A DNA stretch of 64,000 nucleotides, from contig JALFSR010000015.1 in the NCBI GenBank assembly GCA_022778745.1, forward strand, positions 18,665-82,664. Reading direction: 5' to 3'. The notes beneath the pieces were generated by a model. It did not search any database. It had not been told where the DNA came from and saw nothing but the letters and a program-made list of their open reading frames with translations. A program made the position numbers and the translations under genes. Of the stretch, positions 4,588 through 64,000 are shown one piece after another; within the stretch, counting starts at the first letter, position 1, and the number at the start of each line of letters is the position of its first letter. The stretch comes from Clostridiales bacterium. GTDB taxonomy: Bacteria; Bacillota; Clostridia; Lachnospirales; Lachnospiraceae.

Positions 4588-5193
4588 ATGTCATTAGAAC
4601 AGATTGTTCGGGTATGTAAACAGAGACGGACCTTCCATCGGAAGGTCCGTCATTGGGTACAAGATGAAGCCTGGATAAAAAATAAAGAATATGAAAAAGA
4701 TAAGAAATATTATAATTGTGTAAAAGATATTTTAGAAAATCCAGCGTTTCAAATGATGGCAAAGTTTACACAGCATGGGTCTACTTCGACACAGGTACAT
4801 TGTATTCAAGTGTCGTATTTGAGTTATCGAATTGCAAAAAAACTAGAACTGGATTTCTATACCGCAGCACGCGGAGGACTATTGCACGATTTGTTCTTAT
4901 ATGATTGGCATACACATAAAGAGGAGACTGGAAATCATTTTCACGGATTAACGCATCCTCGCGTAGCCTTAAAAAATGCAGAAAAGGAATTTTTACTGTC
5001 TCGTGCAGAAAAGGATATTATTCTACATCATATGTGGCCGTTGACAATTATTCCTCCAAAGACAAAAGAAGGATACATTATTGTATATGCAGATAAGCAT
5101 TGTAGTTTATCGGAAGTAGTGATACGATTGCAGCACCAAAAGAATAAAAAAAATTATCAAAATTCAATGGAAAACAAAGGAAAAAATTTATAA
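4588..5193 (+). CDS. HD-domain phosphohydrolase
   Basis: QHG..H..VSY, GLLHDLFLYDW, DIILHHMWP and YADK motifs. Confidence 0.85.
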   Translation: MSLEQIVRVCKQRRTFHRKVRHWVQDEAWIKNKEYEKDKKYYNCVKDILENPAFQMMAKFTQHGSTSTQVHCIQVSYLSYRIAKKLELDFYTAARGGLLHDLFLYDWHTHKEETGNHFHGLTHPRVALKNAEKEFLLSRAEKDIILHHMWPLTIIPPKTKEGYIIVYADKHCSLSEVVIRLQHQKNKKNYQNSMENKGKNL

Positions 5194-15894: not shown

Positions 15895-16323
15895 ATGAAC
15901 AATAAAGAGACAACGGGATTTAATTCTTCCATTGACTCATTGTTAAAAGGAATGGAAGGATTTGTATCTTCCAAGACAGTAGTTGGAGATGCAATTCATG
16001 TAAATGATTCCATTATTTTACCATTGGTAGATATTCAGTTCGGCGTTGGTGCAGGTGCATTTGCAAACGATAAAAAAAATAATACGGGTGGTGGTATGGG
16101 AGCAAGAATTTCCCCATCTGCAGTACTCGTTATTCAAAATGGAGTGACAAAACTTGTCAATATTAAAAACCAAGATACTGTCACAAAAATATTGGATATG
16201 GTTCCAGATGTTGTAAATCGTTTCACAAGCAAAAATCAGTATCAGCAAGATGATGCTGCAGATGAAGTGATTAAAGATATTGCAAAAGAAGGAAGTAAGA
16301 CAGAAACACCAGAAAATAAATAA
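15895..16323 (+). CDS. gerW: GerW/YtfJ family sporulation protein
   Basis: KTVVGDAI, IILPLVDIQFGVGAG, GGGMGARISPSAVLVI. Confidence 0.88.
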   Translation: MNNKETTGFNSSIDSLLKGMEGFVSSKTVVGDAIHVNDSIILPLVDIQFGVGAGAFANDKKNNTGGGMGARISPSAVLVIQNGVTKLVNIKNQDTVTKILDMVPDVVNRFTSKNQYQQDDAADEVIKDIAKEGSKTETPENK

Positions 16324-16406
16324 AATGCTTTTGTTACTCATCATAGTATGAATACAAAAAAAGCCGCATAGTATAAATCAAAGAGAATCGTCTGAGGACA
16401 GATTAT

Positions 16407-61361: not shown

Positions 61362-62129
61362 ATGAAACTGCAAAAATTGCTTAGTTATACACGTCAGGCA
61401 ATAGATAAATATGATCTTATCGAGCAAGGTGATAAGATTTTAGTTGGACTATCGGGAGGAAAAGACAGTATTGCTTTGTTATACGCATTGAGTCATTTAC
61501 AGCATTTTTATCCTATTCCATTTTCTGTCTATGCAGTTACTGTTGATATGGGGTTTCCATCATATAACACAACGATGCTGCAAACAATTTGCGAGCAGTT
61601 GCAAGTGGAGTTTATTCAAGTGAAGACCGAGATTGCGGGGATTGTTTTTGAGCAGAGAAAAGAAGCACACCCATGTGCACTTTGTGCAAAACTTCGGCGA
61701 GGGGCATTATTACAGGAGGCTCAAAGACTTGGATGTAATAAGATTGCTTATGGACATCATAAAGATGATGTGATTGAAACAATGATGATGTCTTTGTTTT
61801 TTGAGGGACGTTTTTCATCATTTGGACCATATACGTATTTTCCAGATCAGCAAATTGCAGTGATTCGTCCGCTTATTTATGTATCGGAAAATGAAATTAT
61901 TGGATTTATGAATCAGCAAAAACTGATTCCAATGAAAAATCCATGCCCTGCCGACCATCATACAAAGCGAGAAGAAATGAAACAATTAATAAAACAGCTG
62001 AATAGCTATTACCCAGATATTAAGAAACGATTGTTTACTGCGGTGGAGCATAGTAAGATTGATGATTGGAATATGGATATCATGCAAAAATATAGAGGTG
62101 ACGAGAGTGAAAGAACAAAGCTATCATGA
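61362..62129 (+). CDS. ttcA: tRNA 2-thiocytidine biosynthesis protein TtcA family
   Basis: VGLSGGKDS, PCALCAKLRRG, IAYGHHKDD, IRPL, NPCPAD..TKRE. Confidence 0.88.
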   Translation: MKLQKLLSYTRQAIDKYDLIEQGDKILVGLSGGKDSIALLYALSHLQHFYPIPFSVYAVTVDMGFPSYNTTMLQTICEQLQVEFIQVKTEIAGIVFEQRKEAHPCALCAKLRRGALLQEAQRLGCNKIAYGHHKDDVIETMMMSLFFEGRFSSFGPYTYFPDQQIAVIRPLIYVSENEIIGFMNQQKLIPMKNPCPADHHTKREEMKQLIKQLNSYYPDIKKRLFTAVEHSKIDDWNMDIMQKYRGDESERTKLS

Positions 62130-63162
62130 GCAAGTGGATATAAAAAATACATATAAATTAAGAGAATTGATTGCTGCACTTCCTCCATTTGCCAAAAATT
62201 ATTTTCGTGGAATTGAAACGAGAACATCATCACGGACAAGAATCGCATATGCATATGATCTGAATATATTTTTTCGATATTTGCACAATACAAATCCGAT
62301 TTTTCAAAAAGTAGAGATCAAGGATATTACTTTGGAGCAGTTAGAGCAGCTGCGTCCAATGGACATTGAAGAATATTTGGATTATGTAAAACTTTATGAA
62401 GAAGATGGGCAAGTTCATACGAATAAAGAAAGAGGAATTATGCGAAAGCTTTCTTCTTTAAAGTCATTTTATTGTTATTTTTATCGAAATGAGTCGATTA
62501 AATATAATCCAGTAGAGCTTGTTCAAACTCCAAAATTTCATGAAAAAGCAATTATTCGGCTTGATATGGATGAGATGGAAATGTTATTGGAACATGTAGA
62601 TAATGGAGAAAAACTGACAGAAAAGCAAAAAGTATTTCATCAACGTACACGAATTCGAGATCTTGCAATTATGACACTGCTGCTTGGAACAGGGCTTCGT
62701 GTATCCGAATGTGTTGGTTTAAATTTAGAGGATATTGATTTAAAAAATGATGGAATTAAAGTACATCGAAAAGGTGGAAAGGAAGTTATTGTTTATTTTG
62801 GAGATGAAGTAGAGAGTGCATTGCTCGACTATTTAGAACAGAGAAATACAATAGTTGCAGAGGAAGGTCATGAACGGGCATTGTTTCTTTCTCTTCAAAA
62901 AAAACGAATCAGTGTGCGTACGGTAGAAAACCTTGTAAAAAAATATTCACGTACTGTAACGACAATGAAAAATATTACACCTCACAAATTGAGAAGCACT
63001 TATGGCACAAATTTATATCGCGAGACAGGAGATATTTATCTTGTCGCAGATGTACTTGGTCATGCAGATGTCAATACAACGAAAAAACATTATGCAGCAA
63101 TTGATGATGATAGACGAAAAAAAGCAAGAAATATTGTAAAATTGAGAAAAAAAGAAGAGTAA
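62107..63162 (+). CDS. Chromosomal tyrosine recombinase (XerC/XerS-like)
   Basis: RKLSSLKSFY, RDLAIMTLLLGTGLRVSECVGL, HRKGGK, TPHKLRSTYGT, LGHADVNTTKKHY. GTG start after GAGGTG. Confidence 0.9.
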   Translation: MKEQSYHEQVDIKNTYKLRELIAALPPFAKNYFRGIETRTSSRTRIAYAYDLNIFFRYLHNTNPIFQKVEIKDITLEQLEQLRPMDIEEYLDYVKLYEEDGQVHTNKERGIMRKLSSLKSFYCYFYRNESIKYNPVELVQTPKFHEKAIIRLDMDEMEMLLEHVDNGEKLTEKQKVFHQRTRIRDLAIMTLLLGTGLRVSECVGLNLEDIDLKNDGIKVHRKGGKEVIVYFGDEVESALLDYLEQRNTIVAEEGHERALFLSLQKKRISVRTVENLVKKYSRTVTTMKNITPHKLRSTYGTNLYRETGDIYLVADVLGHADVNTTKKHYAAIDDDRRKKARNIVKLRKKEE

Positions 63163-63221: not shown

Positions 63222-63501
63222 GTGGCTTTTTCATTGAAAACATTTCCAAAACCGTTCAGTGCATCAGAAGAAAGAGAATGCTTAGAGCGACTTAGGCAAG
63301 GAGATCCAAAAGCGAGAGAGCTATTAATTGAACGAAATATGCGTCTTGTTGCACATATTATTAAAAAATATGCATTTGCCGAACAAGAAATGGAAGATTT
63401 AATTTCAATAGGGACGATAGGATTAATCAAAGCGGTTAATACATTTGACGTAGAAAGAGGAAATAAATTGTCCAGTTATGCTGCCAAATGTATTGATAAT
63501 G
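63222..63501 (+). CDS. sigK: 5' half of the interrupted sporulation sigma factor K gene
   Basis: FPKPFS.SEE, RELLIERNMRLVAHIIKKY, EDLISIGTIGLIKAVNTF, KLSSYAAKCIDN; it then diverges (AILSLFMRHSFV*) where SigK continues EILM. Confidence 0.85.
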
Positions 63502-63657
63502 CTATCCTCTCATTGTTTATGCGGCACAGTTTTGTATAACAGCTGCCAGCGCTTATAAGTTCGTGATTATCTTGATGAATCGAAATCATTTTCAATGTTA
63601 TTAGAAAAGATTACAAAGAATTAAAGAAAATTTAAAAAAGATTTAAAGATTTTTGTC

Positions 63658-63692
63658 TTGACATTTCACTGCATTGTGCTAATATGGCAGTG
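63658..63692 (+). promoter_or_regulatory. Sigma-A-like promoter with overlapping inverted repeat inside the inserted DNA
   Basis: TTGACA-16 bp-TAATAT; CACTGC/GCAGTG brackets the -10. Confidence 0.4.
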
Positions 63693-63941
63693 ATGCAGAA
63701 AACACAAAAAAGACAAAATTTAATGAAGAATACGATTAATTTTGCGATATACAAAAAATATTCCGCTTATTTCTGTTATAATAAATCATATTCGGAATAT
63801 TTATAAATGAAATGCAGAGTGAATAGTCTCCACTTTAAGTTCAAGTTTGCAGAACACTAAACGGAGAAGAAAAATGAAAGAGTTTCACTTGACATTATGC
63901 TATTTTGTATTGAGGAAAATTAATAATACGGAGGTAGTCCT

Positions 63942-64000
63942 ATGAGCTTAAGCGTAGAAAAGAAGATGACAACAAGCAGAGAGTTACGAGCAAATTATAA
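63942..64000 (+). CDS. 5' end of an ORF inside the element, possibly a Phd/YefM-type antitoxin
   Basis: GGAGGT RBS; MSLSVEKKMTTSRELRANY..., open at the window edge. Confidence 0.4.
   Translation, partial: MSLSVEKKMTTSRELRANY

What the first reader, a model, noticed from the sequence alone, without database searches (positions are those of the whole stretch)
63487..64000. sigK is interrupted by a probable skin-like developmental excision element with a visible att dyad
Seen: the SigK frame is intact to ...YAAKCIDN and then turns into unrelated sequence (AILSLFMRHSFV*). The break at AATG (63498-63501) is centred in the dyad AATG-tatt-GATA-atgc-TATC-ctct-CATT (63487-63514). Downstream DNA is AT-rich, with its own promoter and ORF. 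Established: skin elements split sigK in B. subtilis and C. difficile and are excised by a large serine recombinase in the mother cell; from recollection, the B. subtilis break is at the same EN|EILM codons. Inference: this is attL of a sigK-intervening element in a gut Lachnospiraceae-like organism, giving programmed genome rearrangement during sporulation. Its size and cargo lie beyond the window.
Basis: partly seen in the sequence, partly recalled or inferred. Interest (0 to 1): 0.8.

Follow-up and report, generated by a model that had tools for sequence, protein, structure and literature searches.

The report
Two-kilobase mini element splitting sigK
The sporulation sigma-factor gene sigK of this gut Lachnospiraceae bacterium is cut in two by a DNA element of only 1,962 bp, smaller than any in the 2022 survey I read, whose cut-out enzyme has lost the two domains thought necessary for such enzymes yet still looks functional.

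Summary
The break in sigK is real. The 3' half lies only 1.96 kb downstream on the same contig, just past the window's end. The insert is 1,962 bp, bounded by TAATG cores with an inferred AA crossover. It holds two genes. One is a 91-aa DUF2316 protein behind a conserved sigma-A-type promoter. The other is a 331-aa serine recombinase that stops right after its recombinase domain, with no zinc ribbon and no coiled coil.

The same element sits at the same site in two sister species: Ca. Fimimorpha faecalis (332-aa recombinase) and isolate CHKCI001 (450 aa, internally deleted). Both sigK halves, DUF2316 and the recombinase are under purifying selection (dN/dS 0.02-0.15, dS 0.3-3.2).

For both sister species, public assemblies hold the exactly rejoined sigK. 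In F. faecalis it occurs in at least three strain backgrounds that also occur with the element.

Similar short recombinases abut sigK 3' halves in at least seven other lineages.

Verdict: a skin-type element (known kind) in a new, minimal variant. Excision by the truncated enzyme, and its timing in sporulation, are inferred.

The parts
63222..63499 (+). 5' half of sigK (spoIVCB-like), sigma region 2. No pro-sequence. The start is GTG 63222 or TTG 63234.
   Evidence: ORF list. Pfam Sigma70_r2 only. tblastn with B. subtilis SigK matches residues 28-116. The N-terminus was compared with relatives.
63480..63517 (.). attL: the B arm (sigK codons ...AAATGTATTGAT), the shared core TAATG (63497-63501) and the P' arm GCTATCCTCTCATTG.
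   Evidence: Sequence. The P' arm AATGCTATCC is conserved in 10 related elements.
63498..63499 (.). Inferred 2-bp crossover dinucleotide AA.
   Evidence: It is the centre of the dyad of the rebuilt attP. In G004, attL (GATAAAGC) and attR (GCTAATGA) share only TAA. The exact rejoined sigK of that species nevertheless exists.
63500..64000 (+). Left 501 bp of the 1,962-bp intervening element. The element runs on to window-equivalent 65461 (L001 3461), beyond the window.
   Evidence: Element length from attL AA to attR AA. L001 = contig C92:80665-93930, and L001 coordinate + 62000 = window coordinate.
63658..63685 (+). Sigma-A-type promoter TTGACA-16 nt-TAATAT with a TG extension, upstream of the DUF2316 gene.
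   Evidence: Consensus scan, 10 of 12 plus TG. The -35, the extended -10 and the following GGCAGTGATGCAGA are conserved in G000, G004 and G005.
63942..64000 (+). First 59 bp of the 91-aa DUF2316 gene (it runs to window-equivalent 64217). Off-window parts follow. A terminator-like hairpin lies at 64267-64299. The 331-aa serine recombinase gene lies at 64373-65368. The attR P arm lies at about 65443-65459 and the crossover AA at 65460-65461. The sigK 3' half ends at 65816.
   Evidence: ORFs and sequence of L001. Pfam DUF2316 77 bits, and Resolvase plus Recombinase. Hairpin. NCBI-called 331-aa product (P0017).

Best explanation
This is a domesticated, minimal skin-type element. A 1,962-bp insert splits sigK between the codons for CIDN and EILM.

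The insert encodes a serine recombinase reduced to the catalytic domain, helix E and the recombinase domain (331 aa). I propose that this enzyme binds the inner, conserved 10-13 bp of the att half-sites. It would synapse attL with attR on the same molecule, cut at the central AA and rejoin. That deletes the element as a circle and rebuilds a 206/210-aa SigK.

The enzyme has lost the coiled coil, which in large serine integrases blocks attL x attR recombination. It would therefore need no directionality factor, and it would have lost efficient integration. It would be an excision-only enzyme. Timing would then have to come from when the recombinase, or a helper, is made. SigK here has no pro-sequence, so excision would be the main gate on sigma-K activity, as in C. 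difficile.

Shown: the anatomy, the domain loss, conservation and purifying selection across three species, and the existence of the exact rejoined gene in the two sister species.

Inferred: that the truncated enzyme is the catalyst, that no directionality factor is needed, that excision is mother-cell specific, and the role of DUF2316 (helper or regulator).
For: Anatomy:
- Both sigK halves, two element genes and the att sites are present.
- The recombinase has Resolvase and Recombinase domains only. The catalytic residues (R, S of YSRKS; D, R, R of YRLDRISR) are invariant. A 60%-identical 579-aa relative (G028) has the zinc ribbon and coiled coil.

Inheritance:
- The element is at the same site in 3 of 9 species of the genus.
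- The recombinase tree is (G000,(G004,G005)), matching SigK similarity.

Selection:
- dN/dS is 0.02-0.06 for the sigK halves, 0.05 for DUF2316 and 0.11-0.15 for the recombinase.
- Flanking genes give 0.04-0.16, at dS 0.3-3.2.
- Within F. faecalis, 25 contigs all carry the recombinase gene at full length. The four cluster members used to fetch them are all 332 aa, and nearly all 52 cluster members are 332 aa.

Excision product:
- The exact rejoined SigK of G005 (P0053) is on at least 10 contigs. These are 98.4-100% identical to the in-silico excised locus.
- They fall in at least 3 haplotypes, each identical (0 mismatches in 680 nt) to element-bearing contigs.
- The exact rejoined SigK of G004 type is also on record.

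No other catalyst in sight: G000 and G005 hold no other close serine recombinase.

Generality: short versions abut sigK 3' halves in G084, G337, G388 and G069 and in proteins P0207, P0178 and P0222. Their deletion end points differ, and two are fused in frame to the conserved tail ...SK.

Precedent: deleting the coiled coil of LI integrase makes it promiscuous and gives some attL x attR product without a directionality factor (PMC5499577).

The organism has spo0A, spoIIID and spoIVA.
Against: - No rejoined sigK and no circle junction was found for G000's own species.
- The rejoined contigs of the sister species could come from cured strains rather than from mother cells.
- I know of no published case of a serine integrase working without its zinc-ribbon domain. 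In vitro the coiled-coil deletion alone is already inefficient.
- Short recombinases in other genera sit on long branches (0.67-1.24 against a median of 0.27). That could mean relaxed constraint.
- I found no convincing sigma-E or sigma-K promoter in front of either element gene. The only clear promoter is sigma-A-like.
Confidence: 0.62

Rival explanations
1. Excision is real but not developmental. The element is lost now and then from the germ line, or is still occasionally mobile. The rejoined sigK contigs would then come from cured strains, and split strains would not sporulate or would sporulate only after curing.
For: Rejoined contigs are rare (about 2% of contigs) and one is 11 kb long. 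There is no mother-cell promoter that I could recognise.
Against: The split state has been kept through speciation, with strong purifying selection on both halves and on the recombinase. That is hard to explain if split cells lack sigma-K. The rejoined forms occur in at least three backgrounds that are also seen with the element.
Confidence: 0.15
2. The element is a decayed relic. The truncated recombinase is dead, sigK is permanently broken, and these species no longer make sigma-K.
For: The domains held to be needed for DNA binding and synapsis are lost. G005 keeps a decayed remnant (IVEKIV*) of the old C-terminal tail. Short homologues elsewhere sit on long branches.
Against: dN/dS is 0.02-0.15 on all four pieces at near-saturated dS. 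None of the 25 F. faecalis contigs carries a stop or frameshift in any of the four pieces. The exact rejoined gene exists in two sister species. Core sporulation genes are kept.
Confidence: 0.1
3. Excision is done by another enzyme in trans, and the element's own truncated recombinase is at most a helper. Candidates are the distant 310-aa serine recombinase on contig C85 and the Xer-like tyrosine recombinase just upstream of sigK.
For: A Xer-like gene lies directly upstream of sigK in the three element-bearing species, but not in the three genus-mates with intact sigK that I checked. A second short serine recombinase is conserved in G000 and G005.
Against: In G004, attL and attR share only TAA, too little for a tyrosine recombinase overlap region. 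The attR P arm is the former C-terminal coding end (...EDSK) of this recombinase clade, which ties the site to the enzyme. The element's recombinase is itself under purifying selection. The C85 enzyme is only 25% identical.
Confidence: 0.08
4. The two halves are never joined and act as a two-piece sigma factor.
For: Both halves are intact ORFs under selection. The 3' piece has in-frame TTG or GTG start candidates.
Against: There is no ribosome-binding site before the 3' piece. The 5' piece ends in unconserved read-through codons. A conserved recombinase and conserved att sites flank the insert. Rejoined genes exist.
Confidence: 0.03

Closest known systems
skin element of Bacillus subtilis (sigK = spoIVCB + spoIIIC; recombinase SpoIVCA, 500 aa)
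   Same: It splits sigK at what appears to be the same codons (IEN|EIL in B. subtilis, CIDN|EIL here). A serine recombinase sits at the element's edge, and excision rebuilds the gene (10.1101/2022.02.25.481979).
   Different: skin is 48 kb and prophage-like with 67 ORFs, and its recombinase is full length. B. subtilis SigK has a pro-sequence. Here the element is 1,962 bp with 2 genes and a 331-aa recombinase without zinc ribbon or coiled coil, and SigK has no pro-sequence.
skinCd of Clostridioides difficile (CD1231 recombinase plus CD1234 directionality factor)
   Same: SigK lacks a pro-sequence, so excision is the main gate on sigma-K. The model pairs a recombinase with a small partner protein (PMC5025042).
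   Different: skinCd is 14.6 kb. PMC3442830 places its insertion near the EGNEI site of phiS63, and Table S7 ORF lengths agree. Its recombinase has 505 aa. CD1234 has 72 aa and, according to its authors, no significant similarity to proteins in databases. The small gene here is DUF2316 behind a sigma-A-like promoter.
Smallest skin elements in the Galperin et al. 2022 survey (for example Sulfobacillus acidophilus TPY, 2.6 kb, SpoIVCA 487 aa)
   Same: Compact, non-phage sigK-intervening elements with the recombinase gene immediately upstream of spoIIIC.
   Different: All 15 surveyed recombinases have 487-562 aa, and none of the organisms is a Lachnospiraceae. This element is smaller, and its recombinase is about 160 aa shorter than the smallest on that list.
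gin element in gerE of Bacillus cereus ATCC 10987 (GirC plus GirX)
   Same: A non-viral intervening element in a mother-cell regulator gene, with an AA central dinucleotide inside an imperfect inverted repeat (PMC5595907).
   Different: A different host gene. gin carries three recombinase genes (girA, girB, girC) and further genes. The directionality factor GirX is shown experimentally.
Engineered coiled-coil deletion of Listeria innocua integrase (Int-deltaCC)
   Same: Loss of the coiled coil removes the block on attL x attR recombination (PMC5499577).
   Different: It is a laboratory construct that keeps the zinc-ribbon domain, and its activity is low. The proteins here are natural, also lack the zinc ribbon, and appear to be kept by selection.

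Membership tests
skin-type sigK-intervening element | sigK is split into co-oriented 5' and 3' pieces that give one in-frame sigK when the insert is removed | tested here: met
   The joined product has 206/210 aa. It is 65-74% identical over its full length to the intact SigK of genus-mates.
skin-type sigK-intervening element | An element-encoded serine recombinase lies at the element's edge, next to a sigK piece | tested here: met
   The recombinase gene ends 95 bp before attR and the sigK 3' half. The layout matches that described.
skin-type sigK-intervening element | Short shared core and imperfect dyad at the junctions | tested here: met
   The TAATG core and the rebuilt attP dyad are conserved across more than 10 elements.
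skin-type sigK-intervening element | Precise excision that rebuilds sigK is observed | tested here: inconclusive
   The exact rejoined gene is on public contigs for sister species G005 and G004. It is not on record for G000's own species.
skin-type sigK-intervening element | Excision is specific to the mother cell during sporulation | not testable with these tools
I recognised no mother-cell promoter.
Large serine recombinase / serine integrase | N-terminal catalytic domain with the serine nucleophile and the conserved Arg/Asp residues | tested here: met
   PF00239 with E = 1e-36. YSRKS and YRLDRISR are invariant in the alignment.
Large serine recombinase / serine integrase | Recombinase domain (PF07508) | tested here: met
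   PF07508 with E = 5.6e-17, covering the whole profile.
Large serine recombinase / serine integrase | Zinc-ribbon domain (PF13408) with embedded coiled coil | tested here: not met
   The protein stops about 10 aa after the recombinase domain. PF13408 is found in the 579-aa and 574-aa relatives, but not in G000, G005 or G004. No stand-alone copy exists in the genome.
Recombination directionality factor (role proposed for the DUF2316 protein) | A small element-encoded protein required for attL x attR recombination, usually co-inherited with its recombinase | tested here: inconclusive
   It is co-inherited and under selection in the three Fimimorpha elements. It is absent from all other elements of the same recombinase clade. 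The fold model is poor (pLDDT 62) and gives no structural match.
DUF2316 (PF10078) | Match above the curated cut-off | tested here: met
   77.1 bits against a cut-off of 26, over the full-length profile. It is only 30-34% identical to the other DUF2316 genes of the family, which lie in unrelated contexts.

The most novel reading that the evidence does not exclude
Serine integrases that settle for good in sigK repeatedly shed their coiled coil and then their zinc-ribbon domain. They still work, as compact (about 330 aa), directionality-factor-independent, excision-only recombinases that recognise only about 12 bp per half-site. That would overturn the view that the zinc-ribbon and coiled-coil module is indispensable, and it would offer a natural minimal scaffold.
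Probability: 0.45. Interest if true: 0.78.

Novelty: new variant of a known kind. Interest (0 to 1): 0.6.

Why it matters
Split sigK genes rebuilt by excision are textbook biology, so the bare finding is ordinary. Three things are not.

Size: this element is 1,962 bp with two genes. The smallest in the 2022 survey of 15 genomes is 2.6 kb.

Enzyme: the recombinase has lost both domains that current models hold responsible for outer-site DNA binding, synapsis and directionality. Even so, the element has been kept through speciation under purifying selection, and the exact excision product exists in two sister species.

Recurrence: the same kind of loss has happened repeatedly in other sigK-resident recombinases.

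If the short enzyme is active, it shows how a mobile-element integrase is pared down once only excision is useful to the host. It would also give a natural, compact, one-way recombinase of interest for engineering. A cultured relative (chicken isolate CHKCI001) makes the question directly testable.

Tried and rejected
- Exact-pattern scans of metagenome contigs for the rejoined junction and for the attP (circle) junction found nothing. This is uninformative, because I could not show that the species is in that collection.
- Group II intron, IS element or misassembly as the cause of the 2-kb gap: rejected. The insert has two ordinary ORFs and no Rfam match. The same layout is on hundreds of independent contigs.
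The generic inverted-repeat search was swamped by AT-rich chance pairs.
- DUF2316 function: no solved relative by sequence, no NCBIfam match, a low-confidence model and no fold match. Its homologues elsewhere in the family are in unrelated contexts.
- A shared small gene (a directionality-factor candidate) across elements with short recombinases: none found. Only a 57-58-aa ORF is shared, by two elements with full-length enzymes.
- Sigma-E, sigma-K or SpoIIID sites before the recombinase gene: looked for by eye only, and nothing was convincing in all three species.

Full report
**Where the window lies.** The window is contig C92:18665-82664 of a 2.43-Mb, 109-contig genome with 36% G+C. The contig continues 11.3 kb past the window's end. 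I read that stretch as locus L001 (C92:80665-93930; L001 coordinate + 62000 = window coordinate).

**The observation.**
- The sigK reading frame starts at GTG 63222 or TTG 63234. It runs through sigma region 2 to ...YAAKCIDN, then continues for 12 unrelated codons to a stop.
Residues 111-224 match only about 1.95 kb further on, on the same strand.
- The 3' piece reads ...A-N-EILMMLRSERK... and carries Sigma70_r4.
- attL is AAATGTATTGATAATG|CTATCCTCTCATTG. attR is CATTGGTGAGTATAGCTAATG|AAATACTAATGATG.
- Joining them gives AAATGTATTGATAATGAAATACTAATGATG. This has the same layout as the uninterrupted sigK of genus-mates.
- From AA to AA the insert is 1,962 bp.
By the same criterion, 372 places in the window do as well.

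**The real site symmetry.**
- The meaningful symmetry appears when the attR left arm is joined to the attL right arm.
- In G000 this gives GAGTATAGCT-AA-TGCTATCCTC. In G004 it gives the nearly perfect GGATAGCT-AA-AGCTATCC.
- Across more than 10 related elements the consensus is GAGGATAGC(A/T)-AA-(T)GCTATCCTC.
- In G004, attL and attR share only TAA. That fits a 2-bp serine-recombinase crossover and not the longer overlap of a tyrosine recombinase.

**What the insert holds.** There are two genes, both on the sigK strand.
- The first encodes a 91-aa DUF2316 protein (77 bits against a cut-off of 26). It follows a sigma-A-type promoter, TTGACA-16-TG-TAATAT at window 63658-63685. The promoter and the bases just after it are conserved in three species. 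A terminator-like hairpin follows the gene.
- The second encodes a serine recombinase. From the conserved Shine-Dalgarno sequence and GTG start it has 331 aa. NCBI's gene call on this genome gives the same 331-aa product (P0017).
- The recombinase has the Resolvase and Recombinase Pfam domains and stops about 10 residues after the latter.
- A 60%-identical relative of 579 aa (G028) continues with a zinc ribbon (PF13408), a long coiled coil and a C-terminal tail.
- No phage genes and no Rfam family are present.

**Relatives.**
- The genus has nine species genomes. Six have an intact sigK. Three (G000, G004, G005) have the split gene with the same two-gene insert.
- By exact protein look-up, G005 is Candidatus Fimimorpha faecalis (GCA_018712075.1). 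G004 is the cultured 'Clostridiales bacterium CHKCI001'.
- Their inserts are 1,980 and 2,666 bp.
- G005's recombinase has 332 aa. G004's has 450 aa: it has lost the core of the zinc ribbon and much of the coiled coil, but keeps the C-terminal tail.
- On the recombinase tree, G004 and G005 are sisters and G000 is outside them (support 100/99 and 97/99).
- The complete truncations in G000 and G005 are therefore independent. G005 still carries a decayed remnant (IVEKIV*) of the tail.

**Is it alive?** Pairwise dN/dS values between the three species are listed below.
- sigK halves: 0.02-0.06.
- DUF2316: 0.05.
- Recombinase: 0.11-0.15.
- Flanking Xer-like gene: 0.04-0.06.
- Flanking hydrolase gene: 0.11-0.16.
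- Synonymous divergence ranges from 0.27 to 3.2 and is alike for element and flanking genes. This speaks for co-divergence, not recent transfer.

Within F. faecalis, all 25 contigs read carry the recombinase gene at full length. They were fetched through four 332-aa members of the recombinase cluster, so this sample is biased towards intact proteins. Nearly all 52 members of that cluster have 332 aa. G000 keeps spo0A, spoIIID and spoIVA.

**Excision products.**
- A search with the joined G000 SigK returned 214-aa proteins. One of them, P0053, is letter for letter the joined SigK of G005.
- At least 10 contigs from different samples carry it, with the same neighbouring genes. They are 98.4-100% identical to my in-silico excised G005 locus, with no gap at the junction.
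- Over 680 nt around the junction, eight of these ten contigs fall into three haplotypes. Each haplotype is identical to one found on element-bearing contigs. The other two contigs differ by one base from such a haplotype.
- The split form is far commoner: the 332-aa recombinase is listed in 739 blocks of the collection.
- The exact joined SigK of G004 type is also on record, on two contigs.
- The element predates these species. Empty sites inside them are therefore best read as precise excisions that have happened several times.
- For G000's own species no joined form was found. That species is seen on only about 40-60 contigs.
- Two pattern scans of the metagenome collection were empty.

**No stand-in enzyme.**
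- G000 and G005 hold no other recombinase of this clade.
- Each holds only a 25%-identical serine recombinase (open frames of 310 and 326 aa). G000's copy, the one I read, is itself cut short after the recombinase domain.
- No separate zinc-ribbon or coiled-coil gene exists in G000.

**The wider pattern.**
- Among 401 genera of the family, 18 have a recombinase with E <= 1e-90. Most of them abut a sigK 3' half.
- Most of these have open frames of 550-616 aa. Many of those end ...GEDSK. These residues are encoded by the attR P arm, GAGGATAGCAAA, which ties site and enzyme together.
- Four genera (G084, G337, G388, G069) have versions of 321-360 aa in elements of 4.3-5.9 kb. Their cargo looks like unrelated transport and metabolic genes (read by eye).
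- Two of these are fused in frame to the ...SK tail.
- G414 has lost only the coiled coil.
- An exhaustive HMMER search found 8 of the 150 closest cluster representatives to be 323-348 aa long and to end right after the recombinase domain.
- The three of these whose downstream neighbour could be read each sit directly upstream of a region-4-only sigma ORF.
- The deletion end points differ, so the loss is recurrent.
- These short forms sit on long branches. That may mean adaptation or relaxed constraint.

**How it most likely works.**
- In large serine integrases the coiled coil blocks attL x attR recombination unless a directionality factor intervenes. Deleting it from the Listeria innocua integrase makes the enzyme promiscuous and gives some attL x attR product without a factor (PMC5499577).
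- I therefore propose that the short enzyme deletes the element on its own by intramolecular attL x attR recombination at the AA dinucleotide. It would recognise the conserved inner 10-13 bp of each half-site.
- SigK in this family lacks the pro-sequence that other families of the order have. Excision would thus be the main gate on sigma-K, as shown for C. difficile (PMC5025042).
- What times the excision is open. The one clear promoter is sigma-A-like and serves DUF2316. I could not recognise a mother-cell promoter before the recombinase gene.
- DUF2316 is confined to the Fimimorpha elements. It gave no structural lead. It may be a helper, a regulator or cargo.

**Comparison with the literature.**
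- The 2022 survey of 15 split sigK genes reports elements of 2.6-48 kb. Its recombinases have 487-562 aa and always lie at the element's edge. It lists no Lachnospiraceae (10.1101/2022.02.25.481979).
- The gin element of B. cereus showed that intervening elements need not be prophages (PMC5595907).
- The present element is smaller than any in that survey, and its recombinase lacks two of the family's defining domains.
- I therefore file it as a new variant of a known kind. I do not file its enzyme as a canonical large serine recombinase.

**Limits.**
- The catalyst, the lack of need for a directionality factor and the developmental timing are inferences.
- The direct evidence of excision comes from sister species, not from this genome.
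- The B. subtilis SigK query and my statement that the B. subtilis break is at IEN|EIL rest on memory plus the ORF lengths in Table S7.

Noticed in passing
Genome contig C85:11109-12041 (L088 6110-7042): A second serine recombinase (310 aa, 25% identical) also appears to stop right after its recombinase domain; this is read by eye, not checked with Pfam. It lies between an EPS sugar-transferase-like gene and genes that look like dapB and dapA, and splits no gene that I could see. G005 has a matching 326-aa open frame.
   Followed up: partly
window 62059-63162: A Xer-type tyrosine recombinase gene (best NCBIfam match XerS/XerC, below cut-off) lies directly upstream of sigK in the three element-bearing species. 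The three genus-mates with intact sigK that I checked have no such gene there. Two of them have two ORFs there that look like scpA and scpB (by eye), and all three keep the downstream hydrolase gene. The Xer gene stays in place on the rejoined contigs, so it is not part of the element.
   Followed up: partly
window 63222-63260; loci L016, L017: SigK starts directly at (MAFS)LKTFPKP, without a hydrophobic pro-sequence, in every member of this family that I read. Two other families of the order (G028, G038) have a pro-sequence of about 20 aa.
   Followed up: partly
L001 3540-3560 (window-equivalent about 65540-65560), compared with window 63494-63503: sigK holds two copies of the word AATGAAAT (codons N-E-I). 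One is at CIDNEIL, the site used here and apparently by B. subtilis skin. The other is at KEGNEI. The published core of C. perfringens phage phiS63, GTAATGAAAT, fits the second. Both known sigK insertion hot spots may share one core word.
   Followed up: no
L016 1700-11330 (genome G028): A 9.6-kb sigK element with a full-length 579-aa recombinase. Judged by eye, its cargo looks like a polyamine operon (AdoMet decarboxylase, amino-acid decarboxylase, spermidine synthase, agmatinase) plus a 730-aa repeat-rich surface protein.
   Followed up: no
L016 about 4905-5078 (-) and L045 about 16189-16359 (-): A 57-58-aa ORF, 49% identical over 43 aa, is the only non-recombinase gene shared by two elements (G028 and G418). 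Both have full-length recombinases. It is a candidate directionality factor.
   Followed up: no
L017 1510-6090 (genome G038): A 4.6-kb sigK element at the same codons. Its 574-aa recombinase (40% identical) sits at the attL side on the opposite strand. By eye, its cargo is a GGDEF-type membrane protein and a radical-SAM-like protein.
   Followed up: no
L042 (genome G069), between the recombinase and attR: Here the recombinase (360-373 aa) is separated from attR by about 1.5 kb that holds a 433-aa oxidoreductase-like gene. The C-terminal half seems to have been replaced by inserted DNA rather than simply deleted.
   Followed up: no
window about 2120-2908: The spo0A orthologue (49% identical to B. 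subtilis Spo0A over 265 aa) lies in the window.
   Followed up: no
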